Assembly (NCBI GenBank): GCA_032718475.1
Contig: JAUCBJ010001883.1
Location: 5,069 to 69,068 of the forward strand
Direction of reading: 5' to 3'
Source of the DNA: Nemertoderma westbladi
Lineage: Eukaryota > Animalia > Xenacoelomorpha
DNA length: 64,000 nucleotides
Below, one piece after another: positions 591-23,290 of this stretch (its first letter is position 1; each line of letters begins with the position of its first letter). The translations under genes and the position numbers were made by a program. Under the pieces are notes generated by a model that was not told where the DNA came from, made no database searches, and saw only the letters and a list, made by a program, of their open reading frames with translations.

Positions 591-937
591 TACCGATTTT
601 TTTAAGGGTAATTTTGCGAAATACTGTGCGGAAGTGTCAATGTTCAGTCCCCCCCCCCCCCCCCCCCCTCCCCCGGTGGGCGCATGATCCTGTCATCAAA
701 AATGAAAAATGGTTGAGCGGGTATATGAACAAACCAAATTATGTTTTTAGGTGTGTTTTGTATGATTTTGGGTGTATTTTGAACACATTGTGTTATCAGT
801 AGGCCAACTTCATTGAAAGAATAATCTATATATGTGCTAGCCTAATAAATAGGTATAGGATAGCCTAAATAATTTCTAGAAAAATAAATCAACAATATTT
901 TACATCTCATTTGGCAACTTTTTGAAGATACAGTATA

Positions 938-1809
938 CACCATGTCCCAGAATATAGTGTCGTAATTCAGTGACACGCCCCCCCCCCCCCCCTAATTTTT
1001 TTACAAATCGTAATGAGATTGCATGAAATTTGAAACAGAGATAGTTTCACCTCCCGACCACTGACTGGGTGAGCCAGAATTTTTATTTTTGCTTTCAATC
1101 TTTAGCTACAAGCGTTTAAAAAAAGTGTCTCCAGCGATATTACACCAGTTACACCGCAGTTATTATTCAACCTTAAAGCTAGTTGGTACCAATGGAAAGC
1201 TGGCCGCATGCAAGGATTCCAAATATGTAACACAATATGAATTTCGTTGAAAAATAGCAGAGATATGGGCGTTCAAATGTTGCATGGTTATGCACCTGCG
1301 CGAGGCTATTATATTCTATTTAATAAATACATCATAATCTGTAATATTTTGTTTATCCAAATACTGGGCAACAATGCATTACATCTTTAATCCTACTATT
1401 ACGTAGCTATTCACACATTTAAAAAATGTTCCAGAATATGGTATATTTATTAAATAGAATAAAATAGCCTCGCGTCGTTGCAAAACCATGCAACGAAATT
1501 CAAATTGTGTTACATATTTGGAATCCTTGCATGGCCAGCTTTCCATTGGCACCAACAAACAACCATAAGGTAGAAGAACAAATGCGGTGTAACTGGTGTG
1601 ATATCGCTGGAGACACTTTTTTTAAACGCTTGTAGCTAAAGATTGAAAGCAAAAATAAAAATTCTGGCTCACCCAGTCAGTGGTCCGGAGGTGAAACTAT
1701 CTCTGTTTCAAATTTCATGCAATCTCATTACGATTTGTAGAAAATTAGGGGGGGGGGGGGGGGGGGGGGCGTGTCACTGAATTACGACACTATATTCTGG
1801 GACATGGTG
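938..1809. mobile_element. Tc1/mariner-type foldback MITE with ~390-bp inverted arms
   Basis: TA|CACCATGTCCCAGAATATAG at the left end and CTATATTCTGGGACATGGTG|TA at the right; TA target duplication; arms ~938-1331 and ~1440-1809. Confidence 0.85.
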
Positions 1810-2081
1810 TATTGTACGTATTACAAACGAATGATGTGGCAACACAACCTTGTTGTTTAAAAATTATCAAGTAAGTTAATGAGTTACCTGTAATTATTTA
1901 TAATAATATCATACACATCACTACTGATAGGTGTCTCTATCTAACATTCAGGTTACCGTTATTATCAATTAAAACCTGTTACTTTATTTGTTGAGTAATA
2001 CAATTACTGACTGATTAGGCCACAATTAAAATATATTTAACAAGTTAATTGTATGTAATATTATTGTCCACATATGTTGAT

Positions 2082-3799: not shown

Positions 3800-3920
3800 G
3801 ACGAACTGTTATTTTCCAATTGTTTTAATTTGTGGCTCTTAAATTGCGAATTAATGTACAGTACATTAATTCGCAATTTAAGAGCCACAAATTAAAACAA
3901 TCGGAAAATAACAGTTCGTC
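3800..3920. repeat. 121-bp near-perfect palindrome
   Basis: 60-bp arms centred on 3860 with one mismatch. Confidence 0.9.
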
Positions 3921-6424
3921 GGCTTGTGTTTAAGTCACGAATGGAAAAATTAAACAGCTGGGAAATAACGGTTTAGTGGGGGTTTAAATTTATTTATTAA
4001 AAAGGCTTCAGTATGAATTCTTTCAGCATGGGATCTGAAAGACGTATAAACTGCCGCCTTTAACAATCCGTCGCAATCTAGAAAATGCTCCCCTAATAAA
4101 TATTCGCCGTCTCTTATACCATAATACCGGTTGCAGGTACACCATAATTTTGCATAACGCCGCCACTAGGCCTATCCAATGCGAATCAAGCAGGCACAAA
4201 TTTGCAAGTAGGAGTAGATAAACTATTAACGCATGCATTAACATTTTCGCATGCAAACCAAGTGAATTTTTTTTAAGCACAGTAGGCTAATACAGACCCT
4301 TTTTGTAATTATAGAATTTGCTAAATGCACGTAAGTTAAGTTGGGCGCCAAGGGCAAGGCACGCCATTCCCGCAAAGTGTGCAGGAGAAGCCCGCTAAGG
4401 CGGCGCAAGACCCCCAAAGGCCACAAAATTCCATATCGGTACCGGTTCACAGTCACTATACAGTACATACTGTATGATATACACAGTAGGAATACCATAG
4501 GCCTGAATTAATATAGGCCTGGGGCAAGTTAGGATATCACTGGTAAAGCTTGTGTGACCATTTTTGCAAATTGTTCTTTTTGAATTTTTGTTGTTTATTT
4601 ATTGGTGAATGTTGTAGAACCTTAGTAGATATTTTCTAATGGTAGCTAGTGTTTTTTATTCGCTAGTATTTTTTGAAAATGTAAACAAAATTAATATACA
4701 CTGTAAACTGCTATAATATCCTCAATATGTTTTGTCATTTTATATTCTGCAACAGTTTAAACCTGAAATATCAATGTTTTCACATTTTTATATAATTTCA
4801 AAAAATACAAGGTAGTAAAAAAAACATTAGCTACCATAAAAAACATATCTACTAATGTTCTAGAACACTTACCAATAACAAAAATTAAAATTCACGTATT
4901 TTTAAAATTTACAAAATGGTTACACATATATGAAGAGACAATAACAAATACACGAATCCTGCAATATCATACTATAGAGTCTGTGAATCAAAGCATAAAT
5001 CCGACCTTCTCACCAAAACAGTAAACTCCAAGTAGGCAAACCTATTGCAGTATCGGTCTCTTATAACCGGTGAGGCAGAAAACAGTCTACGAACGGACAA
5101 ACTTCGATAAAACAAAATCCCGCGCAGCGAATCCTAAAATCGGGCTGACTCACTGACGGACTAAAGGCGCTCGTATACTTTGCCGCGGTGTGATTTATAT
5201 GATGAAAAAGACGCTAGCTACAAATATAACCAGCGGGAAAATCCGCAGTGTGAACAAATTATTTTATATATTTTGAGGTGCAAATAATTCCTAAACGCGC
5301 GTGTGTTTTAATTCATAGGTCAAAATTGATTTTTATCCTTCATATACTCTCATTTACTGGGTCCGGCGTTTATTTTACAAATATTCTAATATTTTGGTAA
5401 CTTGTAGGTCCAATACTTACAAATAATAAGGCTCCTTCCCCTTTCATGTATTTCCAGGACTCAAATTCAGGCATAGGGTTAATGCTACGCCCAGAATTCG
5501 GCAATTTAATTTACCAGGTCCCTAATACTAAGAAGAAATGTGTTAGTTTACTACTGTAGGCGTACGGTTACAAATAGCTATCCTGGCTCTTATCTGGAAT
5601 TTTAGTCACCTAGGTAGGCTGGGTAACTTCCTATCAGGACGTTGGCGGGGACACGGTAGGTGTTAGTATCCCTAAATAGCCTTAATTTATTTGTGCCTAG
5701 TTGTAAACTGCCCTACCGCCTGAACGGTATAATCTCAATTCAGGGAAAACACAGCAATCCTCTCCTGGCCTACAAGTTCCAACGCAAGCAATAAACACCG
5801 TGTACTGCCGACAAGCCACCAACGCACCTATACCTGACAATGAGTTAGGCGTACAGTTTTGCTGCACCCTACCAATGTACATGCCGGGTAATGGTGTGCC
5901 TGTGTCCTATCTGCGTACGGGTATCTCTGTCTAACTTTCCTTTTCTCCCCGTAGGAATATGAAGGGGTTCTGCGGGTTTTCCAAGAATTGGGACAATACA
6001 GTTCTTAATTTAAATTTTGGCGTACAGTGTGTCGCTACTCCTACCGTCGATCTTAGGTCTTACACTTAGGTAGCGAAGCATCGAACACTGTCTAACCTTC
6101 AGGCGATGGGCGAATAACTCGAATAGATATTGTGGGCGGTCTCCTGTTCATATTCCCCGATGTTCCCGTTCACTGCTGCAGCCCGATGTCTAGCCGGCCA
6201 TCCTGTTCTTTAGGGGCGTTCACCGTGGTGAAACATAGTAAAACAGATAGGAAAAAGGCAGATATAACAAGTATTTTTAACTTTTATTACAAAAGGATAT
6301 ACATAAACGTAACAAGAAACTAATAGATAACTAATAAAGATAATCTAAAGCACGAATGATTGAGATAACTAATGATAGATAGAAGTATACGATTGAGATT
6401 GATAACTAATGATCGAAATCGCAC

Positions 6425-6571
6425 CTTTTATAGCAAATTTGTCCTGCAATCAATCGAGAAAATTCTCGATTGTTCTATGAGTTCTAATAGGTTTTTAAAG
6501 ATAACTATTGGTCCAGCGAATATATAACTTGCACGACATTGGTTATAATCTAATAACTACAGTCCCATTGG
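6425..6571 (-). promoter_or_regulatory. LTR U3 Pol II promoter: three CCAAT boxes and a TATA box
   Basis: Minus-strand CCAAT at 6571-6567, 6542-6538 and 6511-6507 (~30-bp spacing), then TATAAAAG at 6432-6425. Confidence 0.7.
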
Positions 6572-6650
6572 TTAATCTAGGTACAGACAAATGCAATTTA
6601 AATTGTAGCGGTCAATTTAAATGAGTTGAAATTCTGTACAAAAAATAATT

Positions 6651-6724
6651 CGCACCTACAAGGATTCGAACTCAATACCTACTACATATAATTTCCAACG
6701 CTCTACCGACTGAGCTGCTGAACC
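6651..6724 (-). ncRNA. tRNA-derived Pol III-type cassette in LTR U3 (not a functional tRNA)
   Basis: D-arm/A-box GCTC-AGTCGGTA-GAGC, B-box GAGTTCGAATCC, T6 run at 6645-6640. Acceptor and T stems do not pair. Confidence 0.65.
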
Positions 6725-7701
6725 ACTTGAATAATCATCGTACAAATAGATATAGTAAATACAAATGAGGACTCAATGTAATCTTTTAGCAAAGTTAATT
6801 CGAATAAAATAAAATTTTGAAAATCCACGGCATTTATGAGAATATAATTCTATACCGCTCCATGAAAACAGGATATTATCGTGCATAAAATATACGGTTT
6901 TCACCAATACTAAATCAAATTATAGAATACTTAGGACGTACTTACATATTTACAAATTAAATCTCAACAATAATACCTTTACATAATAATTCGATACAAA
7001 ATAATTACAAATTCAAACTTTACGTATTTAAGGCTTTATTAAGTAAGTACAATATAAATCTAAATTAAATTCACCAAAATAAATCTATTGCATCTCAAAT
7101 ATTGCATAAATTCAAACAATCACAAATACTAATACTACTTAAATATAAAACAAATTGCATAAGTTCGGAATAATTTCAAATAATCACAAGAAAGGCTCAC
7201 AAGTCTTCCGTCTGCTCTTGCCTTCTATTTACTGCGAATACAAGTACTGCTTCTTTATAAAATATAAATTGCATAATATTCGAAACAATAAATTGCGTAA
7301 GTTTGGAATGACTACAAATATAGCACTTTTTAAATATAAATCTTTCTAAATTGCATAAGTTTAGAATAATACTGCATAAATTTAGAACAATATAAACTCC
7401 TTTTACATCTCAAATATGAAATATAAATCTTTCAAATATAAATCTTTCAAATATAAGTTCCTTCTAAATATAAAACTTTCTAAATTTCAAATTGGAACAA
7501 TACAAATACATAAATTTAGAACAATATAAATTGCATAAACTTAGAATAATATAAATTGCATAAACTTAGAGCAATACAAATTTTAAACAATACAAATTAC
7601 CTAAACAATTCAATTTACATAAACAATACATAAAACAAACATAAAATAAACAATTCACAAGAAAGGCTCACGAGTCTTCCGTCCACTCCTTCCTTCCCGC
7701 T

Positions 7702-10700
7702 TTAACGCTTAGCGGATCGAGCCCTGCCGTGTCCTCGAAAACTGCGTATCGGCGATTTAGCTCGTGATATGGGACTTGTGGGGCGAGCCACTGGTTTACT
7801 TTGGACGTTGAGAGACGGTACGACCGTTTCCTCACATATTCGTCTCTTAGTCATCCCAAATCCTCGTCCAATCCCTCGTGACCGATCTGTTGTATCTACC
7901 GCTGGTAAAACGTCTGGGAACGCACGGAAAGCGGACGACGCAGACCCAATAGAAGCTTGCGCCCCCTTTTGATCAGCTGGTATATGTCCCGATCCTCCTT
8001 GCAGTTCTCTGGGAAGCGAAACCGTATCCCGAGTAATTCGAATAGTCGGTTCGTATCCCCTTCGTTCTTCAACGTTGATAGTTTTCTTTAACTGTTGGCC
8101 CACTTTCTGGACCCGTATGATCCTACCCTGTCCGTCCTCCCGAGGGTGACGTGCAGACGGCGCGACCGGTGTAGCTGGTATGTTGGTCGCCTCTAGGACC
8201 TCCTCTTCCTCGAATACGCTCGCTCGTATACGTTTATGGTAGAACGCGGCTCGGTACGCCCATGCGACGGTTAACCAAGCTCCCTTGTTCCGCTTTTCCG
8301 TTCGGAACTGATCAAATTCACCATAGGTGATACGATTGACTACTTTCTGGAAGTTCCATGTATTCTTATTGTCAGGGTGTATCTGTAACAAATATTCGCG
8401 CACAACTCGGAATCCGCTATCGTGAGGCAAAATATCAACTACCTCGATGAGTTTGTCATATTGCGGCATAGCAGAGATATATCCTTCCGACATCATAGTT
8501 TGAGGATTTACCGCCCAAAATCCAAGATGCGCTCTCATCGGGAACCGTCGGCTTCTTTGCGCTGCTACATGTTCGTCAGCCAAATCTTCCCACTCATCAA
8601 ATAGTTTTCGCACGAGTTTTACAGATTCGTGTTTGTAAGGTATGTCTCTTAGTTGGCATTCAGATGCTCGATGTCCCTTTATATTGCAGTAGGTACATTG
8701 AGCCATAAATCTCCAGCAAGTATAAAATGTATGGGACCCTTGATCTCCACACCATCCACAGATTAGTTGAGTTGTAGTAATGTGCTTTCCACTGCACTTT
8801 GTCGAATGATGTCCAGCGACGCCATATTTACCACACATCGTATTAGCAGGGTACCACACTCGCTCATATATAAGATCGCCAATGGGTCGAGCGCTTCCTC
8901 CCACACTATAATCATAATCGTCTGGATCGATAGGTTGGTATGTTTCAGAAGGTTGTATGCAAACTACAGCATCTGTTGCTTCTAATTGTCGAATCTCCGT
9001 CTGAGATTTCTTCGGGAGGTTCCTTTCAATCTCAAGAAGTTCCTCTAAAGGATCATCGATGGCTGTCCTTACTTCGAAATCATCACCTAAGTGACCGATA
9101 GGCGCACGCGTCTGCCGTGATTCGTCCGTAAGCTCCACGATACGTTCTCCTTCATAGGGTAACAATATAAACATAGATGGTCTTTCGATAAGAGATCCCG
9201 CACAGCGAAGATACACGTCTCGAAATATACTGAATCCTGCTCGAGTGAAGGCATTACACTGAGCGTCGGAATTATAGAAGGGTTCGAGAAACCGTCTAAA
9301 CACATCGGTATGAATTCTCCCTTCCGCGTGGAATGTATGATCTTCTCCGAGGCAAAGTGGATATCTTTTAAGAGTCCGAGACACAATGTCGGCGACTAAG
9401 CAAACATTCACTGATGACTCTATCGCTAAATAATATTGTAGTAACGCTCTTGGAGGTGAAGTAATAGCCCAATATACGCATCCTCTCCATTTGAGCTGTG
9501 ATTCAAACTCATTTATATCTGGAGTATCACCTTCTCCATACGTTTCGATATACTTTGTTCTTTTACTTTCCTTATAATCCCAATTAAACATCAAGTAGGA
9601 AATATATCCAGTTCCGGTTTTCTGAGTATCATACTCACGGAAGTATCCTTGTTCTATAGACCACAGTATAAGAGGTCGAGTGTCGATGTAAGGTGTCGGT
9701 AATCGGTCGTCACTGTCCGACATGCCGGCGAAGTCACTAATTAAGTCCTCTCTTACTCCTGATCCAATCTTTACAACAGTTTTATCTAAAATCATATTTC
9801 TCACCGTCTTTGGTAACATTCTAGCATCGATATTGCAAGCCTGGTCCATTTTCTTTACTATATTTGTGATGAACTGGTGCTGCTTTGTAGTTCCTGGAGG
9901 TATCGGCATTCGCTTGTCGCTCCTTTGTCTACTGAAAACGGGCAAAACTCCGTCTGCCGCTCTAATTTGTATAGTCTTGGAGGTTAGACTCTGCTGATGG
10001 CTGCCGCCCTCGTTATCATAAAACATGTAACCGTTTTCCTGAAACGATCTAAACGTCCTATTCCATTTGTCCAATAATTCTTCCGAAGGTTGCCAAATCT
10101 TCTCTATATCTTTCTCGTCCTCGAAACGAATGACTTTACCTTGCCAGTCCGCAGCGATATCTGTATCCGACTCAAAGGTTCCTGTTCCAATCCATAAGCG
10201 AATTGTTTTGGTTAAATATCCTTTCAGGTTACTCGGAGCTATATCAGCGCCAGCTCTATCCAGTTCCCTAAAGTCTTGAATATGAGTCGGAACATTATGC
10301 ACGACCTTTTGCGTAATATGTCTACGTAAATCATATATCTTAACCATATCGCTTAGAACAACTGCAGGAAGAAACTCTAAGTTCGAAATGATTTCCGGAT
10401 GATCCACAATAGGTATTTCATACGTTGTATCTTGTCGAACTGGTATACTAATAGGGAAATTGAGTGTCGTACTCAATGGTTTCGTAGTTGAAGTACTATA
10501 CGGTTGCATTTCTCTTGTCCTTTCCGGGGATGCAATCTGTAGTCTCTGAATAACGTTTTGAGCAAAGTTTATACTCTCGAAAACTTCCGGTGTCATCTCC
10601 TTAGCTGAAGTTTGATCGTGTGACGTCCAATGGTAAGGTAGGCTCGCGAGTCTTCCGCCCCATTCTTCCATCTCACCTTTCTCGAAAGCCTTGTAGGCTC

Positions 10701-11427
10701 TGTATAGGCTAAGAGCTTCTTTCTTTTCGCGGGTTGACTGAGTCGCCTCGTCCAGCGTAAGTTCGAATACATCGGGTTCAACAACCTTAGGTGGGTAAAC
10801 GACAATTTCTCCCGCCTTTGGTCCAGTCATGGCGAATGAATGATATGGATTCGATAAAGGATACCCTCCTTCCTGGTAGCGTAGTTGTTGATGGTTCGAA
10901 CACCTCGCCAATATCGGTTCGGGATTTTCCTTATTCAAACGCATCGGAATCGCATTTCGTTGTTCGCGCATACAAGATCCGCATTGATAATAAAGTTTAT
11001 AAACTGAAAATGCTTCCTTAGTTTCTCTATCGTCCCCTCGAGTTCGTCTGTAAAGAAGCATTCCATCAAATTCATCTCGTACCGCAGGCATAGTTTCGTG
11101 CGCCTTCAGGTATTGCATGGTATGATACAAACGACTAATTTCAGTATCGGGGTCTTCGCTAATGTCTCCCGTATCACACAAAGCGTCGTACGGGTAAAGT
11201 TCATTGAAGGTTTTGCGCAAACTTTCGATTCTTTCATTTAACGCGTTTTGCCTTCTCTTTATTACATTCGAGTCATATTTCGTTCTCACGAGTTTCGCTG
11301 TACTTTCTGATAAATCCTTTATTCCAAATATAGTGTAATCCTTAGCTCCAAATCGTTCGAATGGCGCTGCTTCTTCCTCTTGGATATCATATCCCCATCT
11401 CGGCTCTCCTTGTATCCCCTTCGCCAT
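7702..11427 (-). CDS. BEL accessory ORF3 (1241 aa): DEDDy 3'-5' exonuclease (WRN/Mut-7/RNase D-like) plus CCHC zinc knuckles
   Basis: ExoI MFYDNEG (D471, E473); ExoII LPKTVRNMILDKTVVKIGSGVREDL (D561); YIDT; ExoIII-like W...LLQYYLAIE (Y666, E670). Knuckles CGWCGDQGSHTFYTC and CTYCNIKGHRASEC. No signal peptide or TM segment seen. Confidence 0.8.
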   Translation of the reverse strand: MAKGIQGEPRWGYDIQEEEAAPFERFGAKDYTIFGIKDLSESTAKLVRTKYDSNVIKRRQNALNERIESLRKTFNELYPYDALCDTGDISEDPDTEISRLYHTMQYLKAHETMPAVRDEFDGMLLYRRTRGDDRETKEAFSVYKLYYQCGSCMREQRNAIPMRLNKENPEPILARCSNHQQLRYQEGGYPLSNPYHSFAMTGPKAGEIVVYPPKVVEPDVFELTLDEATQSTREKKEALSLYRAYKAFEKGEMEEWGGRLASLPYHWTSHDQTSAKEMTPEVFESINFAQNVIQRLQIASPERTREMQPYSTSTTKPLSTTLNFPISIPVRQDTTYEIPIVDHPEIISNLEFLPAVVLSDMVKIYDLRRHITQKVVHNVPTHIQDFRELDRAGADIAPSNLKGYLTKTIRLWIGTGTFESDTDIAADWQGKVIRFEDEKDIEKIWQPSEELLDKWNRTFRSFQENGYMFYDNEGGSHQQSLTSKTIQIRAADGVLPVFSRQRSDKRMPIPPGTTKQHQFITNIVKKMDQACNIDARMLPKTVRNMILDKTVVKIGSGVREDLISDFAGMSDSDDRLPTPYIDTRPLILWSIEQGYFREYDTQKTGTGYISYLMFNWDYKESKRTKYIETYGEGDTPDINEFESQLKWRGCVYWAITSPPRALLQYYLAIESSVNVCLVADIVSRTLKRYPLCLGEDHTFHAEGRIHTDVFRRFLEPFYNSDAQCNAFTRAGFSIFRDVYLRCAGSLIERPSMFILLPYEGERIVELTDESRQTRAPIGHLGDDFEVRTAIDDPLEELLEIERNLPKKSQTEIRQLEATDAVVCIQPSETYQPIDPDDYDYSVGGSARPIGDLIYERVWYPANTMCGKYGVAGHHSTKCSGKHITTTQLICGWCGDQGSHTFYTCWRFMAQCTYCNIKGHRASECQLRDIPYKHESVKLVRKLFDEWEDLADEHVAAQRSRRFPMRAHLGFWAVNPQTMMSEGYISAMPQYDKLIEVVDILPHDSGFRVVREYLLQIHPDNKNTWNFQKVVNRITYGEFDQFRTEKRNKGAWLTVAWAYRAAFYHKRIRASVFEEEEVLEATNIPATPVAPSARHPREDGQGRIIRVQKVGQQLKKTINVEERRGYEPTIRITRDTVSLPRELQGGSGHIPADQKGAQASIGSASSAFRAFPDVLPAVDTTDRSRGIGRGFGMTKRRICEETVVPSLNVQSKPVARPTSPISRAKSPIRSFRGHGRARSAKR

Positions 11428-11454
11428 TATTAGAGGTATGGTTACATAATCATA

Positions 11455-11491
11455 CTACTAGAGGGAATACAACAGAGTTTATTGTTAGTTG
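11455..11491 (-). promoter_or_regulatory. Putative splice acceptor for ORF3
   Basis: Minus strand CAACTAACAATAAACTCTGTTGTATTCCCTCTAG-TAG: CTAAC branch point, pyrimidine tract and tandem AG about 30 nt before the ORF3 ATG. Confidence 0.55.
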
Positions 11492-12085
11492 TGAGGAGAT
11501 GCGAGAGTTTTCGTCTGCCCTTTTGGCTCGACAACGCTCTAACCTCCTACCCATAGCCTAAGATCTAAGGTTTCTTTAGTGACACACTGTCTTATCTAAA
11601 ATTTTTGCCGAAATAAAAACGAATTTGGGCTAAACTGGCTGTGAGTCTAAAATACTCACTTTTTGATCCCAAACTATTATCAGAAAATAAGCAATCAAGA
11701 GTTAGTAATAAATATAGGGAAGTCTATTATTCGACGTAACTTATTGAAACAAGACCGTGTAAAATTTAATTAAATTTTTAAGAAAGGCTCGCGAGTCTTC
11801 CTTTCTTGTTTCTCTAATTTTAAGTTCCACCCGACTGTACCCTGAAATCTATTCACTGGAGAAAATTTTAAAAATTTTTCAAATCCAAATGGATTGTCTA
11901 AAATTTCGAAAATGTCTCAATATTGTGAGTTCCAAGTAGAATTCCATTTCTTATACCTACAAATCCCGCTCCTATGTGACACATAAGGGTACTACCCTCA
12001 ATGTTCACATATAAAGACAATGGAATTCTACCGCTGTCTTTACTACAGTGTACAGGTATGTGGAAATCTATTTGTAAACTCCTTA

Positions 12086-15000
12086 CTATTTACTAATATT
12101 AGTTGGAGATTTGTAATCTCCAGACTCGTTTCGCGTCTCTTCAAGAAGTACGAGACGTTGTGTCGGTCTGTCTACTGTACGACTGTCAATTGTCCGTACA
12201 GTCACAGTTCTTGTCACACCATCCATAGATGGATGTGTGTCTAAAATTACACCTGTTATCCAGAAGCGTCTTTTTAGATTCACTTCCGCCAACAGCACAT
12301 GATCTCCCGCTCTTAAAGCGCGAGTTTTGTTGTACCAGGTTGTTCTGGCAGAAATAGAGGGCAAATAATGGTTTTGCCATATTTCCCAGAATTTGTTAGC
12401 TAGTAGTTGCGTGATTTTCCACGCTTTTCTACCGTAGCTATCGCCTTCTATTGGAATAGAAATAGGCGTCAAAGTAGTCGGTGCCTGCATAAGCAGGTGT
12501 GCCGGTGTCAAAGCAAATTGGGATTGTTTGTCATCGGGTACTAATACTATTGGTCTAGTATTTAGTATTGCCTCGATTTCAACAAACAATGTTGTCAGTT
12601 GGTCGTCTGTCAATATGTGGTTTACTGGAATTACTTTTGCCATGGCTGTTTTTATAGATCTAATCAATCTCTCCCAGACTCCGCCTCTCCATGGACTGTC
12701 TGGAGGATTAAACTTCCAAACAATCTTGTAAGGACGTAGTTCGTTTGAGATTTGATCATGATCTAAATTCTTAAAGGCTCTAGCAATTTCATTTCGAGCA
12801 CCAACAAAGTTTGTACCTTGGTCTGAGTACGAGCATTTCACTAGTCCGCGTCTAGCGATAAATCGCCTTAATGCTAGTATAAAGGCATTGGTGGAAAGAT
12901 CCATCACACGTTCGATATGAACTGCCCTACTGGACATGCATGTGAAAATCAGTCCCGTTTACTAGTATACGTCCACGTTTCGTATGTATGGGACCAAAGC
13001 AGTCAATTCCAGTCTCTGTGAAAGGTGGTCTGAATGCCTGTAGTCGTGCTTGTGGAAGTTCACTCATTTCTTGGGTACTTATTCTAGAATGTACCTTTTT
13101 ACAAATAATACACATACGTGTCACTGAACTTAACGCTTTACTGGGTCTAATTAATACAAATCTTGTACGTAAATATGAAAGACAGTGGTGTCTTCCAGCG
13201 TGTTTCAGATGTAAATGTGCGTCCAGTATCATTGCACGTTGTAATTCGTGATGCTGCGGTATTATTATTGGGTACCTAAAGTTTGTGTTAAAGTCAATGT
13301 TTTGAAGCCGAGATTTATGACAAATTAAGCCATTATGAATAATCGGACTCCAACTCAGTATTGGTGATGACTTGATTGGTTGACCTTGACTTATAGATGT
13401 GAATTCGCGCGCGAAATATCGCAATTGATAATGCCGAATTAATTTAATTTCACATCTGTCAATCTCAGTCAATGTGAGTCGACGTGTAAAGTCGCGTTTG
13501 CCTTTAACGTATTGTACAAAACGTACAATCCACGCTAATTTTCGGCACGCGTTGGTCCAAGAATCTGTTAGGTTTACAATACGGTCGACGTAAGTATTTG
13601 TGACGTCATCAGGTAAGTCAATGGAGAATTTGGAAGGTTTTGATTTACTAGATGGGCCCACGAGTCCGCCGGTAGGTATTCCCTTGTTGACTGTTGATCC
13701 GTCCGGGTCTACAAGTAATTTGTCCTTCTTTGTTTTCTTACCTTGATTGTCAGTACTTTGTAAGTCGATCGTTAATGGTGGTTTGAACTCTATGGGATCA
13801 CTGGGTTTCGGTAAACTTATTTTTCTGCCGATATTAATCCCAGGTCTCACCGTAGGTTGTAAGGTTGGTATGTCTCTTGAGCGTAAAGTAACACCTGTAT
13901 TTACATTTGCGTAGGTACTACCCACATCTGTAATACATGAGGTTTCACTGTGCTTATGGTTACTCAAGAGTGTTAAGTTTGGTAGTTTGTCATTAGAAGG
14001 CCGCTCCAATAGAGAAACTGCGGCTTTACTATTAGTCAACACATTACTAATGTCTGGTGGAACATTTTGTGACATGTCTGGTAAAATGTTTCGCGGAACA
14101 TCCGGCGAAATATCTAGTGACATGTTTGGCAAAACGTCTGGTTGACCGTCTAGTAACGCGTCTGGTTGTTTGTCATTAGAAGGCCGCTCCAATAGAGAAA
14201 CTGCGGCTTTACTATTTGTCAATATGTTACTAGTGTCTGGTAGAACATTTTGTGATATGTCTGGCAAAATGTCTGGTTGGCTTGTCTAGTAACGTGTCTG
14301 GTTGACCATCTGGCGATACGTCTGGTAACATGTCTGGTTGACCGTCTGGCGATACGTCTGGTAACATATCTGGTTGACCGTCTGGCGATACGTCTGGTTG
14401 AGAAAGGCTCGCAAGTCTTCCTGCCCTAACTTTGTGAGTTATATTCTTCCATTTCGCCTTTGGTTTCTTCTTAAGTTTCGCCGTTGTCCTTTTCTTTGCT
14501 TTACTTTTCTTTGGTTTTTTAATTTCGGCGTCCTCAGGAATAGTGTTAGACTTGTTATCGTATAGTGGCGGCCAATATTGTGTTGCTCTTTGTAAGAATT
14601 GTGGTCCGTGTTGCCAAAATTCTTTGTTCTCCGGTTTACAGAATTCCTCAGGCATCATTCCTCGTGACGCAATATCAGCTGGATTTTGTGGTCCGGGACA
14701 ATGTCGCCAATCTTCCTTTATTGAACGGTCTAGAATTTCTGCACGACGGTTAGCCACGAATGTCTTGAATTCAAGTGTATCGTTGTTTATGTAAAATAAA
14801 ACCAACGTCGCGTCAGTCCAATAAAATATCTGTAAACTTGACTGTAGTTCTGTCTGTATAAGGTTCACGATTGTGGTTGACAGGGTTGCGGCTTGTAGCT
14901 CAGCGCGTGGTGTCGTCATATACTTAGTAGGCATGGTCTTAGCCTTAGAAGTAATGAGCGAAACATCAAACTCGTCTGAGTCTACTTGTCTGCGCAAATA

Positions 15001-18000
15001 CGCTGTCACACCAAAGCCATTGTCACTGGCGTCGGAAAAACAATGTAATTCCAAGTTGTCAGGAAATGTCGTCTGTAATGGAAAGTACACCCGGGGTATG
15101 GAATAATCCTCTAACGAAGATAATTGCGCCTCCCAAGTCTTCCATAAGTCCACTTGTTCGGATGAGATCGGTTCGTCCCATGTCAGTCCATCTTTCCAAA
15201 TACTGCGCATATAAATTCTGGCTTGCAGTATTATTGGGCTGATGAAACCTAATGGATCAAACAGTCTACTTAGTTTCGACAAGCAAGACCTCTTTGTCAG
15301 AGAATCCCCTTCAGCGTCCAGTTTTACTTTCACTCGAAAGTTGTCTGTGTTCGGGTCCCAAAATAGTCCCAACACCTTGGTCGTCGGCAGTGGTTCGAAC
15401 TCTAAGTCAATATCACCACCCCCACGTTCAGTCGTTTCGAATGAATTTACCAATTCAGTGCTGTTTGAGGCAAACTTAGTGAGGTTAAAACCTCCGCCTG
15501 TTAAACAGTCCCGTAATTGATGTGCTACTGTGATAGCACGTTCTACTGTGTCACAACTTTGTAATCCATCGTCCACATAAAAGTCTCGTTCTACGATGTC
15601 GATTATCTCTGGGTCATATATATGTTTCTGATCCCTAGCGGTCTGTTTTAGGGCGTACATAGTGCAATTTGGGCTGTCCCTGGCACCGAAAACGCGAACT
15701 TGCATTTGGTAAGTCGCCGGTGGTAGACTTAAGTCTCCTTCCGGGTACCAGAGGAACCTCAAACTGTCTCTGTCTCGCTCTAACGCTCGCACTTGGTGAA
15801 ACATCGCTTCTACGTCACAAGTAAATGCTACTTGGCGCTGACGGAAGCGCATAATCACCCCCATGAGATAATTATTCATGTTTGGTCCGTCCATCAACTC
15901 ACTGTTGAGAGACATTCCTTCAAACAGGGCCGCGCAGTCGTTAACTACGCGTACTTTATCTGGTTTGTCGGGGTGTCTCACGTAGTGATGTGGCAAATAG
16001 TATGTCTGGTCTGTCACAATCTCTGGGTTTGTCATCCTGATAGCGTACCCTTTTGTCAAATACGTCTCCATCTGAGTATTGTACTGCAGATGGGCTTTCT
16101 CGTCCTTTAATAAACGTTGTCGTATTGAGTGTAGACGTCTTAAAGCTAGCGGATAGTTATTTATGAGTTTAGGACTCTGGTTACGCCATAGCATCCCTAC
16201 CTCATAATGTCCGTCTTTCGTCTGGCGGATAGTATCTTCCATGATCTTCAAAGATTGTTTCTCTTGTTCCGACATACACGGTTCGTAACTACCGGGTTCT
16301 GCTGTATCTTGTTCTAACCACCTGATAGTTTTCTCTGTTAACTCTTTGTCTAATGCAGCTTGTTCCACTTGATGGTTTCCTAACGCGTCATCATCGACGG
16401 GCGTTGTTGAGGTTATTGGTGTAGATAGACTCACAAGCCTTCCGGCGTTATCATCTGTCGTCGATGGAACCTCTGCCTGACTCGTCTTCTTCTTATGCTC
16501 TATACTAACCTTGTGGATAGGCTTCTTTCTGTGACTTATCGTATTTGCTACACACGTCGTACTCGTCGCTTTGTCGTGTTTCGTCGAACGTAGTGTAGTG
16601 TAGTCTATGTCAGGTGAAAAGGAATGAATCGAAGTTGTAGTTAGTAAACTACATGTACTTTGTACATCGTCTTCCTCATCACTTATATCCAGTGTGCGCA
16701 CAGGCGCTCGAGTATACCACCTTATCGGAGTTCTACAGGCGTAAGCGTTTCCCGCTACGACTACCGATGGTCTGGTTTCCCACACTTGATGTAGGTTGAA
16801 TTGGTCCGTCCCGATCAGCATTGCTACCGACCTATAGTTGACAGGACATTCAGGTACACCAAGGTGTCTGAAATACTTACGGTCCTCTAAGGATTGCTCT
16901 GGGACTGGACCTAGTAGGTTACTAAAGTCCTTTATGGCCGCAAAAGTCAAATCCTTAAAAGGTAACAAAGACCTCTCCTTTTCGCTATGTTGCGATTTTG
17001 GAAGAAGAGTGTCCAAGTTTAACTTAACTCGTGTCACTGGTATTGCACGTTGTCCATGCATACTACTTACAGTGTACTTTACGTGTTTACCTTGTCTGAG
17101 ATCTGTGACGACATCAGCTACCTTCTCATCCACGTAGCTGTGAAATGAGGCTGAATCTAGGATAGCGTAGATCCTTTTGCTCCCTTTTGTGCCAGTGATC
17201 TTAACGGGAATTACACTAAAACCCTTTAATTGGTCAGGCGTCAAAAGTGCAATCGATGGTTGTTCGTCTTCATCTGAATATATGTCTTCGTCTTCAGATT
17301 CTTCTCCAGAAGAACCGGATTGTTCTGGGAAGCAATCCCTAATATGTGTCACGAAGGTTGGCGTCGTTCTCGATTCACGTGTTTTGTATGCACTATTGCA
17401 TTTTGCTGCAGCTTCCGGGTGTTCCCTGGTGAAGCGTTTGGTCGGCGTATGACTGTCCGTGTGGAGCAGACCGTCATGGTTGCGTCCACAGTAAGGACAG
17501 GTGTCCGTATTTGGGCAGTCCTTACGGACATGTCCATGTAGCGTACACCGCCAACAAGAATCCAATGGCCGTATTTGCAGTCGTCGTTCCTCCGAGTTCA
17601 ATTCGTGGAATAGTCGACATCCTCTCAGTTTATGGCTAGTATGTGGTTTACCTAGCCATTCGCAATATTGGCAACCGCTAAAAGTCTGTGCTCAGTTGCT
17701 GTCGGGTCTGTTTGGTTCCAATTGGTGCGGATACCTTATTACTGTCTGAAAATTGTCGGGTTTCGGTCGGTGTAGCATAGGTGACCGTCTTTGTAGATGT
17801 CGTTGGTGGTTTCTGTCTGTTTGATGATGGTAAGGTTATTCCTTCCGCCACGATATGTTGGTCCGTGTAGTTCGAACGCGTCTCGACTACTGCCTCTCTA
17901 GATATCAGTAAGTAGACGTCTTCCAACTTCAAGAATCCACCTCTCTCTTCTCGCTGATATTCTATCTTTCGCCACTCCCGACGAAGTCGATGGTGTAATC

Positions 18001-20908
18001 TTCCTATTATTTTCAACAGGACTGTCGGAGTGTTCGCGTAGTCAAGTTGTCCAATCGAGCGTAGTGTAGTAATGGCGTTTTTAATCTCGTCAGCCAATTT
18101 CAGTAAGTCAACGGGTTTTGTAATAGCCCCTCCCTTACAGAGTTCTTCTATTACTGACTTAGCCATACTTACGGTGCCTCCGTAAATCGATGTTAAGCGA
18201 TCGTACGCTAGTTCGAAGGCATCTGGTACACCAACAAAAGTCTCCGCTAGACGTTTCGGTTCTCCCGATAATGTTTGTAACAGGTAGTTGAATTTTTCTC
18301 TCGATGTAAAAGCACACACAGCGATTTGAGATTCAATGTAGTCTACAAAGGTGTGCCAATGTTTAGAGTTGCCGGAAAACTTAGGTGGTTGTTGCACCGG
18401 TAGTCCTTGTCTCGCTGCGAATTTCGCTATTTCTTCAGCAACGTTCAAAGTTTCGCGTCCTGGGTTGGCAACCTGGTTGATGTTCTCCCTTCTTGGCGCT
18501 TTTCTTTGATACGATGTGTTGGTCAATGGTATTTGTCTTTGCGGAACTTTTGGATTTCTATTGTGTTCGAATTCGGAATTTCTCGAACTATCGGAGTGAA
18601 CTTCCTCCAAGCGTTCCTCTATCTGGGCCAACTTGTTGACAACTGGTCGCAGAATGTCGGCAAATTGTTGAGTACTGATTGCGTCCGTTGGTTGTAACGC
18701 CCTTTGTGTTGGTGTATTCTGTGGAGGATTGTCAATAAATGAGTTATCTGAACGCTCACGTTTACATTAGTCGGCCGCTCCTGTTCTAAATACCTCGCGT
18801 TTCGGGTAATCCGACTCACTTGAAGTACTACTGTCACCTGGATACGGTGGTCGATGTGCTCGTGTCCGTTGCGTCGTCCGAATTCTAACGTTTCGCTTCG
18901 GAACATCGTCTACTGGTCTCCTTTGTTCGGTAGGCTCACAGGTCTTCCTCGAAGTCGTAGATTGCAATGTAAACTGGTTAAACGGTCGCGTATCCACTGG
19001 TCTCCGTTGCTCGGTAGGCTCGCAGGTCTTCCTCGAAGTCGTAGATTGCGATGTAAACTGATTAAACGGTGGTCGAGTGACAGCGTTTGAATCTAAAGGC
19101 CTTGTAGGCCTAAACGTCATTGGGTATGTGTAGTGCGTAACGGGTTTTGGTGTCGAAGGTGGACTCACCTGTTTTGTCGTTAGTAGTGCAGGTCCGGTCA
19201 ATAAACTACTACGATCGGCAATCGGTGGGTTACTTACCTTGACTTTCAGAATAGGCGACGACGTTGCTCTTGGCGGTATGAACTTGTCCGGAATAACAAA
19301 CCTGTGTTCCGTCGCACCATGGATAGGAGAAATATTACTACTACCCGCAATCGAAACAGGTTCCTTAGTCGTAACTGGTGCAAACATAGGAGTTACTTGA
19401 GGGAATCTTTGACATAAGTCTTTAACTAGTTGTCTTTCTCGCCAAGGTGCCCCTACACTTCCTTCCTTCATTCGTTCCTGAATTTGGCGGTGCCTTACCT
19501 CTATCTGGTCCAAATCATGTCCGTCACGAGATCTCATCGATCGATCGCGGGATAGAAGATCCAGATTTTCCTTGGCTTCGGCTAGTTCTCTCGCCTTTCT
19601 TTCGAGTTCGAAATGAAGTTTAACTTCCTTCTCGCGTTGTTCCGTCAGTTGTTGTTGCGCCTCGAACTCCGCTTGTCGTATAGCTGATTGAGCCTTTATT
19701 TGCCGTTTTTTCAATTCGGCTTGGGCTTCCGAAACTCGCCTTTGTTCGTCTAACGCTGCCGCTGCCGCTTGTCGTTCCAACTCGGCTGCTGCCGCTTGTC
19801 GTTCCAACTCAGCCGCTGCCGCTGCCGCTGCCGCTGTCGCTGTCGCTTGTCGTTCCAACTCGGCTGCTGCCACTCGTTGCGCTAACTCAGCTGCCGCTGC
19901 TCTTTGTGCTATTTCTAGCTCCAACCTTTCCATCTCAGCCGCTTCCAACTCGGCTTGTTCTTGCAGATGAGAGATTCTCGCAACATTTGCAACGCGTAGC
20001 TTCTCTTCCTCTACAGCCGCTTGTACAGTTAACAATTGAGTTTGTTCTTCCATTTCTCGTTGTTGTCTGTGGTACAGTTGTTGCTGTCTAGAAATTTCTG
20101 ACGTCACTATACTTACCTCGCCAATTTCGCTGCGAATACTCACTAACGATTGGTCCAGTATTTCCGGTGCCGATTCGATTTGTACGGGTAAAGTTCCCCT
20201 CGTATATTCCGGCACGGTTTCCAAATCGCCGACGTCTTCGCCACACATACGTAAGTGATCCGTCAGATGTTTCAGTTGTCCATCCAGTCGGTACAGTTCC
20301 TGTTCTTCCTCGGGCTGTAATAACTCGTCGGAAACCGACTCACCTAGCAACTGGTCCGCTTGTTCCTGTTGTATCTGTCTAATGGTCGTCTTAAACTGAA
20401 TCAGTTTCTCCCTAGCGATCATTAATTTCTCGAGGATTCTAAACTGTGTGTCCATATCCTGTCTCTGTCTAGCTAGATCTTGTAGACCTATTAGATTATC
20501 TACGGACTTATGTACTCTACTCTGTACTCTCACCTGTAGAGTGTAGAACTCGAATCGAGACATCGGAGCGGTCAACTCGTCTAATATGCGTTGGCCTTCT
20601 CCAATACTCCTAGTAATATGCGCCATGTAACCGCCGACGCTTCTAACAACTCTTTCTGTGCTTCCTACTGAACTTACCATCTCCGTTTCCCTATGTCTAG
20701 GTTGCGGGACCGTTAGAAAGTCCTCAGTCCTGCCGTCGCCTCGTACTACGGCATCCGGTACTCCCGTTGGATGTACTGGTGACGCGCACGGTGTATGTTC
20801 GGCAGGCTCGCGAGTCTTCCCCTGTAGTTCTTCCGCTGCTGACTTATCCGCGTCACATGAGTCATAGTCGGTTTGTGTATTCTTCGTATAGTCTTGTTTG
20901 TCACTCAT
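12086..20908 (-). pseudogene. BEL/Pao gag-pol polyprotein, disrupted
   Basis: Coiled-coil Gag N-terminus; Pao Gag core (PPKFSG...EKFNYL); three Cys/His knuckles; protease AILDSAS; RT YLPHH...FYVDD; RNase H FSDAS...NPADIASRG; integrase HHCC and SDQGTNF...GGVWERL. Lesions: in-frame TAA at 18769-18767 and frameshifts near 17685, 14280 and 12957. Confidence 0.93.
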
Positions 20909-21706
20909 TTCGGTAGTTGTAAGTCAAGTAAAGTGAGTGTCAAAGTATCAAACTTACGGTATTTGTATAAAAACGGTATTAATTACAGTCATATAAAATT
21001 AGCCTACCGGCCGATTTTATAGCAGATGGATAAAATTAGCCTAAACGGCCAATTTTACAGCAAATAAATGTCACGGAATAAGTATATAATAAAATTAGCC
21101 TACCGGCCAATTTTATAACAAATAAATCGGATAACGATATGCGTTATCAAAAGGTAAATTAAATACAATAATACGGACTAATTCAGCAATAAACAAAGAA
21201 ATCGTACGGAATGCATAAATACTTGAGACAGTGGAACCCACAATAATTTTAACTAATACGGTAATGCCTAACTTATTTATGCAACTTTTCGAACTCACCC
21301 CCTCCAATGATTCTCCAGAAAAACAGATTCCCAGATACAAACCGGACGTGAACCTTTCCGTTTCCAGCGTTGCGGACGAAGTGCGATTTTCCCAACCAAA
21401 GTTGTTGAGTTATCTATCTCCCAAACTTGCTAAACACGGTCTTGCTCTCGTTACAGTCTAGAAATGAGCTCTGAATCCTGAAAAACAAAAGAGTTAGGTT
21501 TTACTTTTACGAAAATTTTGTACCGGTTCAATATGGTATTTAAACCCCTTTTTTAAACACCGGTATTCAATTCCAAAATATTTTACACGCATTTCAAATC
21601 AAAATTTTATTCAAAATATTAGCACTTAGCTAATCAAATACGAATTTTTACCTCAAAATACAAAATTTTCAAATAATTTTGTTCTGCTGAACCGTAGTTC
21701 AGAAGA

Positions 21707-21718
21707 TCATATTCCTAC
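21707..21718 (-). other. Non-tRNA primer-binding site candidate GTAGGAATATGA
   Basis: Abuts the 5' LTR, lacks the TGG expected for tRNA CCA pairing, and is exactly complementary to LTR positions 22742-22753 and 5951-5962. Confidence 0.6.
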
Positions 21719-23290
21719 TATATGAAGAGACAATAACAAATACACGAATCCTGCAATATCATACTATAGAGTCTGTGAATCAAAGCATAAATCCGACCTT
21801 CTCACCAAAACAGTAAACTCTAAGTAGGCAAACCTATTGCAGTATCGGTCTCTTATAACCGGTGAGGCAGAAAACAGTCTACAAACGGACAAACTTCGAT
21901 AAAACAAAATCCCGCGCAGTGAATCCTAAAATCGGGCTGACTCACTGACGGACTAAAGGCGCTCGTATACTTTGCCGCGGTGTGATTTATATGATGAAAA
22001 AGACGCTAGCTACAAATATAACCAGCGGGAAAATCCGCAGTGTGAACAAATTATTTTATATATTTTGAGGTATAAATAATTCCTAAACGCGCGTGTGTTT
22101 TAATTCATAGGTCAAAATTGATATTTATCCTTCATATACTCTCATTTACTGGGTCCGGCGTTTATTTTACAAATATTCTAATATTTTGGTAACTTGTAGG
22201 TCCAATACTTACAAATAATAAGGCTCCTTCCCCTTTCATGTATTTCCAGGACTCAAATTCAGGCATAGGGTTAATGCTACGCCCAGAATTCGGCAATTTA
22301 ATTTACCAGGTCCCTAATACTAAGAAGAAATGTGTTAGTTTACTACTGTAGGCGTACGGTTACAAATAGCTATCCTGGCTCTTATCTGGAATTTTAGTCA
22401 CCTAGGTAGGCTGGGTAACTTCCTATCAGGACGTTGGCGGGGACACGGTAGGTGTTAGTATCCCTAATAGCCTTAATTTATTTGCGCCTAGTTGTAAACT
22501 GCCCTACCGCCTGAACGGTATAATCTCAATTCAGGGAAATCACAGCAATCCTCTCCTGGCCTACAAGTTCCAACGCAAGCAATAAACACCGTGTACTGCC
22601 GACAAGCCACCAACGCACCTATACCTGACAATGAGTTAGGCGTACAGTTTTGCTGCACCCTACCAATGTACATGCCGGGTAATGGTGTGCCTGTGTCCTA
22701 TCTGCGTACGGGTATCTCTGTCTAACTTTCCTTTTCTCCCCGTAGGAATATGAAGGGGTTCTGCGGGTTTTCCAAGAATTGGGACAATACAGTTCTTAAT
22801 TTAAATTTTGGCGTACAGTGTGTCGCTACTCCTACCATCGATCGTAGGTCTTACACTTAGGTAGCGAAGCATCGAACACTGTCTAACCTTCAGGCGATGG
22901 GCGAATAACTCGAATAGATATTGTGGGCGGTCTCCTGTTCACATTCCCCGATGTTCCCGTTCACTTGCACGACATTGGTTATAATCTAATAACTACAGTC
23001 CCATTGGTTAATCTAGGTACAGACAAATGCAATTTAATTTGTAGCGGTCAATTTAAATGAGTTGAAATTCTGTACAAAAAATAATTCGCACCTACAAGGA
23101 TTCGAACTCAATACCTACTACATATAATTTCCAACGCTCTACCGACTGAGCTGCTGAACCACTTGAATAATCATCGTACAAATAGATATAGTAAATACAA
23201 ATGAGGACTCAATGTAATCTTTTAGCAAAGTTAATTCGAATAAAATAAAATTTTGAAAATCCACGGCATTTATGAGAATATAATTCTATA
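21719..23290 (-). repeat. 5' LTR of the BEL element (1572 bp, lacks the TATA segment)
   Basis: Direct repeat of 4927-6854 with a 355-bp deletion at 22965/22966; tRNA-like cassette at 23087-23160. Confidence 0.95.

What the first reader, a model, noticed from the sequence alone, without database searches (positions are those of the whole stretch)
7702..11427. Env-position ORF encodes a DEDDy 3'-5' exonuclease with zinc knuckles instead of an envelope protein
Seen: an intact 1241-aa ORF between integrase and the 3' LTR on the element strand. It has ExoI D471-x-E473, ExoII KIGSGVRED561L, an ExoIII-like Y666xxxE670 (Glu where Asp is usual), two to three CCHC knuckles (~8655-8840), an N-terminal CxxC...CxxH and a basic RG-rich tail. 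Known: these motifs typify WRN-exo/EXD/Mut-7/RNase D nucleases, several of which trim small RNAs. From memory, DEDDy accessory ORFs have precedent in rotifer and nematode LTR elements, so the domain capture alone is not new. Inference: two roles are plausible. It may trim the element RNA 3' end back to the 12-bp PBS duplex to create the primer, which would link it to the missing tRNA PBS. Alternatively it may act against piRNA/siRNA silencing. The combination of exonuclease, self-complementary PBS and TA ends is the best candidate for an undescribed system here.
Basis: partly seen in the sequence, partly recalled or inferred. Interest (0 to 1): 0.88.

Follow-up and report, generated by a model that had tools for sequence, protein, structure and literature searches.

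The report
Self-priming retrotransposon carrying an exonuclease gene
A young but broken BEL/Pao-type jumping gene carries, where an envelope gene would sit, an intact gene for a likely RNA-trimming enzyme with zinc knuckles, and its primer site pairs exactly with a stretch of its own terminal repeat, so it likely starts copying itself without a host tRNA, while the enzyme is probably a separate accessory tool rather than the primer-maker.

Summary
Observation confirmed. The 1241-aa ORF (11427-7702, minus strand) lies between integrase and the 3' LTR of an 18.4-kb BEL/Pao-type element with TA...TA ends, a TGTGT target duplication and 99.2% identical LTRs. It has no membrane segment and has a splice acceptor 28-31 nt before its ATG. 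One distant homologue shares the exonuclease-plus-knuckle layout. Profile comparison (pairwise P 7e-5) and the homologue's Atlas model (TM 0.57-0.61) place the domain among WRN/EXD-type DEDDy exonucleases. No model of this protein folded, and its last acidic residue is Glu, so activity is unproven. The 12-nt primer site abuts the LTR and is complementary to LTR 5962-5951 (2 of 3000 shuffles). That stretch begins at an initiator-like site, as in Tf1, and lies 337 nt past the best poly(A) signal. This favours an RNase H cut over trimming of the RNA 3' end. No relative with genomic context was found, so the exonuclease-primer link rests on one element. An 11-copy oriented palindromic motif runs through the element. 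DEDDy capture is known (rotifer Gypsy-type elements); a BEL/Pao host and BEL self-priming were not found in 10 searches.

The parts
4927..23290 (-). BEL/Pao-type LTR retrotransposon, 18,364 nt, TA...TA ends, flanked by a TGTGT duplication (23295-23291 and 4926-4922)
21719..23290 (-). 5' LTR, 1572 nt; lacks 355 nt that the 3' LTR has (6529-6175), at a 3-nt microhomology
   Evidence: 12 mismatches and one 1-nt indel in 1572 aligned nt
4927..6854 (-). 3' LTR, 1928 nt
21707..21718 (-). 12-nt primer-binding site flush with the LTR end; no TGG
22742..22753 (-). Perfect complement of the PBS in the 5' LTR; predicted pair probability 0.92-1.0, plus 7 further pairs with the LTR end after a 5-nt bulge (about 0.5)
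5951..5962 (-). Same complement in the 3' LTR; begins with a YYANWYY initiator match, with CCAAT at 5991 and AGACA at +29 (candidate second start site, inferred)
21687..21702 (-). Predicted C(UACG)G hairpin just 3' of the PBS (pair probability 0.9)
6230..6571 (-). Upstream promoter/poly(A) unit of the LTR (inferred): CCAAT 6571, 6542, 6511; TATAAAA 6432; initiator match 6402; AATAAA 6288 with U-rich downstream element
6635..6724 (-). Degenerate tRNA-like segment in the LTR: A box 6717, B box 6671, then T6; role unknown
   Evidence: not called by ARAGORN or Rfam
17678..20908 (-). gag region (DUF1759), interrupted by an in-frame stop at 18769-18767
12086..17691 (-). Knuckles-protease-RT-RNase H (PF05380)-integrase (zinc domain, DUF5641) in three frames; frame changes near 17680, 14250 and 12940
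11455..11490 (-). Splice-acceptor-like site (branch point, pyrimidine tract, TAG/TAG) 28-31 nt before the ORF3 ATG
7702..11427 (-). ORF3, 1241 aa, intact, no membrane segment
10891..10983 (-). ORF3 aa 149-179, CxxC-x23-CxxH, possible zinc site (untested)
9412..10032 (-). ORF3 aa 466-672, DEDDy-like exonuclease domain: D471, E473, D561, Y666, E670
8656..8835 (-). ORF3 zinc-knuckle array, two complete and one degenerate
6855..6861 (-). Short purine-rich tract flush with the 3' LTR (PPT position)
7189..20821 (-). Eleven oriented copies of a palindromic motif (core GGAAGAC-YYGY-GAGCCT), starting at 20821, 19033, 18949, 16444, 14422, 13671, 11802, 10657, 9117, 7681, 7210; none in the LTRs or outside the element

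Best explanation
ORF3 is an intact non-envelope third gene of a BEL/Pao-type element that likely encodes a WRN/EXD-type 3'-5' RNA exonuclease with zinc knuckles, likely made from a spliced RNA and likely acting as an accessory that blunts host small-RNA silencing, while the element likely primes itself separately, Tf1-style, through its 12-bp LTR-PBS duplex and a predicted RNase H cut. Shown: the ORF, its position, the motifs, one homologue with the same layout, the 12-nt complement, TA ends and the TSD. Inferred: the fold (about 0.9), spliced expression (0.8), tRNA-independent priming (0.8), a transcript starting at the anti-PBS with a cut after base 5951 (0.5), catalytic activity (0.6), and the target. 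In this model the knuckles and basic tail bring the protein to RNA, perhaps via the 11 repeated motifs, and the nuclease shortens the 3' ends of guide RNAs or their precursors engaged on element transcripts.
For: Fold: the two-sequence profile against 32 PF01612 domains gives pairwise P 7.1e-5, Prob 63%, aligning ExoI and ExoII; the element's pol as control gives P 0.42. The top PDB hit is human EXD2 at ExoII, E 0.68. The homologue's domain scores 0.94 (182 of 256 features) to a 'Werner syndrome-like exonuclease' cluster, TM 0.57-0.61 to PF01612 models; whole-protein hits include CCHC+exonuclease and EXD1-like clusters. The homologue has W-x11-Y-x3-D at ExoIII and the knuckles. A separate gene with its own acceptor fits a trans-acting accessory. 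Priming; the anti-PBS start is the only 1 of 23 LTR initiator matches with a DPE-like word at +28/+29, against 27 such sites in 73,400 nt of flanking strands; RNase H motifs are present; Tf1 makes its primer by an RNase H cut (PMC7175516 passages). DEDDy ORF3s were captured at least twice in rotifer elements (PMC5408684), which suggests a benefit not tied to one priming mode (inference).
Against: Nothing here tests the target. Glu670 stands where Asp is invariant in 32 of 32 PF01612 sequences and in the homologue. ExoIII was not aligned by the profile comparison. ORF3 alone scores only P 0.01, and Pfam and NCBIfam give no exonuclease hit. HMMs found ExoII in 6 of 6 cases, but ORF3 beat the shuffles for only 2 of 3 profiles. 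In rotifers, small RNAs still cover every ORF type and copy number shows no clear link to DEDDy ORFs (PMC5408684). The upstream TATA/AATAAA unit looks stronger than the distal signals (48% U downstream against 22% and 30%), which is awkward for any cis self-priming model. The DPE-like word is one base off the recalled +28 spacing. The repeated motif shows no covariation above shuffles and folds better on the antisense strand in 10 of 11 copies. ORF3 being intact is expected by chance about 14% of the time, so it does not show selection in this copy.
Confidence: 0.36

Rival explanations
1. ORF3 makes the primer. An RNA containing the anti-PBS, either the genome's own 3' end after distal polyadenylation or a short RNA started at 5962-5960 in a 3' or solo LTR, anneals to the PBS, and ORF3 trims its 3' tail back to the 12-bp duplex.
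For: Both unusual features sit in one element. Distal AATAAA signals lie 260 and 577 nt past the anti-PBS. An initiator-like site at the anti-PBS would give a short RNA whose first 10-12 nt are the primer. 3' processing of element RNA was suggested for rotifer DEDDy ORFs (PMC5408684).
Against: Self-priming in Tf1 uses RNase H and is predicted in the plant Tcn1 and TAR lineages (PMC6317226 passages); the passages read name no exonuclease. The cis duplex is predicted to occupy the PBS almost fully, which would block a trans primer. The bases 3' of the anti-PBS can pair further with the LTR end (about 0.5), so trimming would not obviously stop at 12 bp. The proximal poly(A) signal looks strongest. 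Earlier AI notes describe self-complementary BEL PBSs without naming an exonuclease (unchecked).
Confidence: 0.2
2. ORF3 is a weak or dead nuclease used as an RNA-binding scaffold, like EXD1 or Maelstrom, that organises, exports or shields the element's RNA.
For: Glu at ExoIII against Asp in 32 of 32; knuckles and basic tail; 11 repeated oriented motifs that could be binding sites; inactive DEDD derivatives act in piRNA pathways (PMC5408684).
Against: All four catalytic positions remain acidic, Tyr is kept, and the homologue has the canonical set. Rotifer ORF3s also vary one acidic residue, DEED.
Confidence: 0.2
3. ORF3 acts on DNA: it proofreads or polishes cDNA ends (non-templated additions, leftover primer) for a blunt, TA-ended integration substrate.
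For: WRN-type domains can act on DNA (PMC5408684). PBS and PPT are flush with the LTRs, and the ends are not TG...CA.
Against: CCHC knuckles and a basic tail point to RNA (established knowledge; PMC7599994 passages). TA...TA ends are known in plant Copia elements and listed in an annelid survey (PMC9804982, PMC8220671). ORF3 is not fused to Pol.
Confidence: 0.1
4. ORF3 is a passenger: a captured host or foreign-element gene with no role for this element.
For: Only one homologue was found and its context is unknown; intactness is compatible with neutrality.
Against: It is intronless, has its own acceptor, carries two copies of the element's repeated motif inside its frame, and its codon-position GC matches pol, which suggests long residence.
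Confidence: 0.08

Closest known systems
DEDDy ORF3 of bdelloid rotifer LTR retrotransposons Juno and Vesta, and of Terminons (PMC5408684, results 3.1-3.6 and discussion read; PMC6431247, passages)
   Same: A separate third ORF in the env position with a DEDDy-type exonuclease, no membrane segment, one acidic residue varied, function untested.
   Different: The carrier here is BEL/Pao by its pol domains; the motif reads D-E-D-E, not DEED; the protein is 1241 aa with a knuckle array; the rotifer LTRs are 159-551 bp with TG...CA ends. That paper does not discuss PBS or priming (0 hits for PBS and tRNA). Common origin was not tested.
Tf1/Tf2/Tj1 self-priming (PMC7175516 and PMC4600332, passages); plant Tcn1 and TAR lineages (PMC6317226, passages)
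   Same: PBS beside the LTR, complementary to a short LTR stretch instead of a tRNA.
   Different: Different superfamily. In Tf1 the complement is the first 11 nt of the RNA; here the start site is unmapped, and a second, upstream promoter/poly(A) unit would place it about 440 nt into the RNA.
Belpaoviridae (BEL/Pao) as profiled by ICTV (PMC8742986, whole text)
   Same: Gag-knuckles-PR-RT-RH-IN order with PF03564, PF05380 and PF18701; optional third gene.
   Different: The profile gives 4.2-10 kb, LTRs of 0.2-1.2 kb, an 18-nt tRNA-Arg/Gly PBS and an env-like third gene. Here: 18.4 kb, 1.9-kb LTR, no tRNA-type PBS, exonuclease third gene.
WRN-exo/WEX/EXD2/EXD1/Mut-7 group of PF01612 (PMC3985635, passages; Atlas clusters)
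   Same: ExoI D-x-E, ExoII K-x-G-x4-D, ExoIII Tyr spacing.
   Different: Long insertions, Glu at ExoIII, below all family cut-offs, fused to knuckles. A knuckle-bearing RNase D of trypanosome mitochondria is recalled, not checked.

Membership tests
BEL/Pao (Belpaoviridae) | Gag-PR-RT-RH-IN order with BEL-specific domains | tested here: met
   PF03564 E 4e-12, PF05380 E 1e-42, PF18701 E 1e-21; knuckles and motifs
BEL/Pao (Belpaoviridae) | Two LTRs and a target-site duplication | tested here: met
BEL/Pao (Belpaoviridae) | 18-nt PBS for the 3' end of tRNA-Arg or tRNA-Gly | tested here: not met
   No TGG after the LTR; 12-nt self-complement instead. Host tRNA fragments could not be screened.
BEL/Pao (Belpaoviridae) | Length 4.2-10 kb, LTR 0.2-1.2 kb (ICTV); TG...CA ends (PMC3601003) | tested here: not met
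   18.4 kb, 1928-nt LTR, TA...TA. Filed as an atypical BEL/Pao-type variant.
BEL/Pao (Belpaoviridae) | Placement in the RT tree | not tested
   No BEL relatives were fetched
DEDDy 3'-5' exonucleases (PF01612, WRN/EXD type) | ExoI D-x-E and ExoII D in family register | tested here: met
DEDDy 3'-5' exonucleases (PF01612, WRN/EXD type) | ExoIII Y-x3-D | tested here: not met
   Y666-x3-E670 in this copy; Asp in the homologue and in 32 of 32 references
DEDDy 3'-5' exonucleases (PF01612, WRN/EXD type) | DnaQ-like fold | tested here: inconclusive
   Own models pLDDT 31 and 28; homologue's Atlas model (mean pLDDT 0.44) TM 0.57-0.61
DEDDy 3'-5' exonucleases (PF01612, WRN/EXD type) | Score above the Pfam cut-off | tested here: not met
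DEDDy 3'-5' exonucleases (PF01612, WRN/EXD type) | Metal-dependent 3'-5' activity | not testable with these tools
   needs an assay
Rotifer retroelement DEDDy ORF pool | Sequence clade with Juno/Vesta/Athena ORFs; DEED motif | tested here: inconclusive
Tf1-type self-priming | PBS beside the LTR, complementary to the element's own LTR | tested here: met
Tf1-type self-priming | Complement is the 5' end of the RNA | tested here: inconclusive
   Initiator and DPE-like match at 5962 for; upstream TATA unit against; no reads
Tf1-type self-priming | RNase H cut makes the primer | not testable with these tools
   RNase H acidic motifs are present
Envelope/fusion proteins | Signal peptide and transmembrane anchor | tested here: not met

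The most novel reading that the evidence does not exclude
A tRNA-free priming system: a second promoter inside the LTR makes a short RNA whose first 10-12 bases match the primer site, and the element's own env-position exonuclease, loaded through its zinc knuckles onto a repeated motif written along the element RNA, trims that RNA back to the duplex to make the primer. That would be a retroelement that encodes both its primer RNA and a dedicated primer-maturation nuclease.
Probability: 0.15. Interest if true: 0.88.

Novelty: new variant of a known kind. Interest (0 to 1): 0.57.

Why it matters
It extends DEDDy gene capture, described in rotifer Gypsy-type and Penelope-like elements, to BEL/Pao with what looks like a different exonuclease type. 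Repeated independent capture argues for a real, still untested function. It also gives a clean case of a BEL/Pao element without the tRNA primer site that the ICTV profile assigns to the family, with a sharp prediction: a start site at 5962-5960 and an RNA 3' end at 5951. One start-site mapping and one nuclease assay would separate the RNase H model, the trimming model and the anti-silencing model.

Tried and rejected
Envelope: rejected. Folding: a single sequence and a two-sequence alignment gave useless models, so no fold search was run. Homologue searches: 0 hits for ORF3 aa 420-960; 0 for the two-sequence alignment, which missed even the homologue it contained, so that blank carries little weight; only itself for P0002. 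Of 2 HMMER hits, P0001 matches knuckles only and was dropped. Contig scans: no relative in viral contigs or metagenomes. The motif pattern gave single matches only, and none of 89 loci held BEL pol or ORF3 by tblastn. tblastn of plasmids: none. The two-sequence profile matched 2 of 151 bacterial genomes, both MgtE-type chance hits, and no exonuclease. No whole genome is held and no RNA holder was listed, so copies, dN/dS, start sites and small RNAs were not examined. Shuffle controls for the profile-profile score were not obtained (timed out). Splice-junction priming, suggested by earlier notes, is not needed: the 12-nt complement is contiguous. The tRNA-like LTR segment does not hold the PBS complement. 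Post-insertion selection on ORF3 is not shown. The motif and PBS words were absent from the 9 held supplement files of PMC3118150, 2.0 million characters, probably cut. Four papers on Cer elements, Tf1 and rotifer elements, sought by recalled ids, were not held, so the nematode precedent and the rotifer PBS type stay unchecked.
Full report
The element. The minus strand holds an 18,364-nt LTR retrotransposon, 23290-4927. The LTRs differ at 12 of 1572 aligned bases, one 1-nt indel and a 355-nt segment missing from the 5' LTR. Both ends read TATA, and TGTGT is duplicated at both flanks; 4- and 6-nt alternatives do not match. Pfam finds DUF1759, PF05380, the integrase zinc domain and DUF5641 in BEL/Pao order. 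PF05380 is the BEL/Pao RNase H (PMC3985635, passages). gag-pol is broken by one in-frame stop and three frame changes. The ICTV profile (PMC8742986, whole text) gives 4.2-10 kb, LTRs of 0.2-1.2 kb and an 18-nt tRNA-Arg/Gly PBS, so size, LTR and PBS are all atypical. TA...TA ends alone are known elsewhere (PMC9804982, PMC8220671, passages). An animal host is inferred from the family's range.

ORF3. It has no membrane segment or signal peptide. My filter for branch point plus pyrimidine tract plus YAG passed 4 positions in the element, two of them (11458, 11455) 31 and 28 nt before the ATG, so env-style spliced expression is likely. The donor was not identified. With break rates taken from the LTR pair, 2.8 frameshifts are expected in gag-pol (3 seen), and ORF3 stays open about 14% of the time. 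This rough estimate rests on a single indel, and intactness is no proof of selection.

The exonuclease call. No family library names the domain. HMMER over 1.84 billion representatives with aa 410-960 gave 2 hits; one matched knuckles only, and the other, P0002 (E 3e-5), aligns over 512 columns at 24% identity with the same exonuclease-knuckle-downstream layout. The pair's profile ranks human EXD2 first among 8 PDB sequences, at ExoII, E 0.68. I aligned 32 bacterial PF01612 domains, taken from 15 of 20 and 17 of 30 fetched loci. The pair's profile matches that alignment at pairwise P 7.1e-5, Prob 63%, over ExoI, the following strand, ExoII and the next helix, but not ExoIII. Weaker versions: 12 stand-alone domains P 0.0044, E. 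coli RNase D P 0.053, ORF3 alone P 0.01, pol control P 0.42. HMMs picked ExoII in 6 of 6 protein-profile pairs; ORF3 beat all scored shuffles for 2 of 3 profiles. In the Atlas, P0002's domain is nearest a 'Werner syndrome-like exonuclease' cluster (0.94; PF01612 on 38% of members), with TM 0.57-0.61 to PF01612 models; these figures were not calibrated for protein parts, and the model's mean pLDDT is 0.44. AlphaFold failed twice on the window's protein. Together the fold is likely, by way of the homologue. Activity is less sure: Glu670 replaces an Asp invariant in 32 of 32 references and in P0002.

The primer site. The 12 nt flush with the 5' LTR have a perfect complement inside each LTR; 2 of 3000 dinucleotide shuffles reach that length. 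In a 1141-nt leader fold the 12 pairs have probability 0.92-1.0, seven more pairs form after a 5-nt bulge at about 0.5, and a C(UACG)G hairpin follows the PBS. Where the complement falls in the RNA decides the mechanism. An upstream unit (CCAAT 6571, 6542, 6511; TATAAAA 6432; initiator match 6402; AATAAA 6288 with 48% U downstream) would put it about 440 nt into the RNA and 337 nt past the poly(A) signal. The complement also begins with a YYANWYY match, the only 1 of 23 in the LTR with a DPE-like word at +28 or +29; such sites occur 27 times in 73,400 nt outside. A start there is the Tf1 arrangement, where the first 11 bases pair with the PBS and RNase H cuts (PMC7175516, PMC4600332, passages). 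The RNase H motifs are present. Cis priming from that start also needs distal polyadenylation. No reads were available to settle this.

The repeated motif. Eight exact copies of GGAAGACYYGYGAGCCT and three variants lie on the element strand between the LTRs, two inside ORF3 and none in the other 45 kb. The loop guanines are invariant, and retroviral knuckles bind exposed loop guanines (PMC7599994, passages). However, covariation does not exceed shuffles and the antisense strand folds better in 10 of 11 copies. Gag has its own knuckles, so ORF3 is only one candidate reader.

Mechanism. I commit to two separate systems: Tf1-like self-priming by RNase H, and an accessory RNA exonuclease most likely aimed at silencing RNAs (0.36 for the whole). 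The primer-maker model (0.2) survives mainly as a trans version using a short LTR RNA. A dead-nuclease scaffold (0.2), cDNA polishing (0.1) and passenger status (0.08) remain. The target is inference only; the rotifer data show no clear benefit in small-RNA cover or copy number (PMC5408684).

Novelty. DEDDy ORF3s are described in rotifer Juno and Vesta elements and in Terminons. Ten library searches listed no paper whose title, abstract start or read passages describe such a gene in BEL/Pao or self-priming in BEL/Pao. PMC3118150 has 0 hits for 'exonuclease', 'primer' and 'tRNA' in its main text. Subscription papers, Repbase reports and older Cer-element papers were not visible, and its large sequence supplement was probably cut. 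Earlier AI notes report self-complementary BEL PBSs and Rrp6-like ORF3s in other genomes (unchecked) and none with a BEL exonuclease ORF. Verdict: real, a new variant of a known kind, interest 0.57; the coupling that would make it a new system is unshown.

Noticed in passing
window 7189-20821, minus strand: Eleven copies of a 17-22-nt palindromic motif, all in one orientation, inside gag, pol, ORF3 and the UTRs, in two codon phases. Nine match within 2 mismatches against 0.02 expected (the pattern came from these copies). Whether it works as an RNA hairpin, a cDNA hairpin or a DNA site is open.
   Followed up: partly
window 6724-6635 and 23160-23071, minus strand: tRNA-like A and B boxes followed by T6 inside the LTR. 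Its first 10 nt also occur in the hairpin beside the PBS, possibly by chance.
   Followed up: partly
window 22965-22964 versus 6529-6175: The 5' LTR lacks the 355-nt segment holding TATA and AATAAA. The 30-nt CCAAT spacing runs across the junction, so the segment looks native and deleted rather than inserted.
   Followed up: partly
window 21478, minus strand: Strong splice-acceptor-like site in the leader. An intron from an LTR donor (for example 22212) would remove the PBS from the gag message.
   Followed up: no
window 23441-27168: 48-bp satellite, about 78 copies, 150 nt from the 5' LTR.
   Followed up: no
window 34327-39505, minus strand: Young Gypsy element, single 1543-aa frame, LTRs 99.5% identical, TG...CA ends, PBS starting TGG, GCTAC duplication: a conventional contrast.
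   Followed up: partly
window 41369-42724, plus strand: Separate integrase-containing frame of another element.
   Followed up: no
window 935-1812; 3800-3920; 50664-51300: A fold-back element with long inverted arms, a 121-nt near-perfect palindrome, and a 68-bp tandem array.
   Followed up: no
P0002 (ENA contig of 7460 nt): Single-member cluster with exonuclease, knuckles and a shared downstream segment, but without ORF3's first 400 residues; context unavailable.
   Followed up: partly
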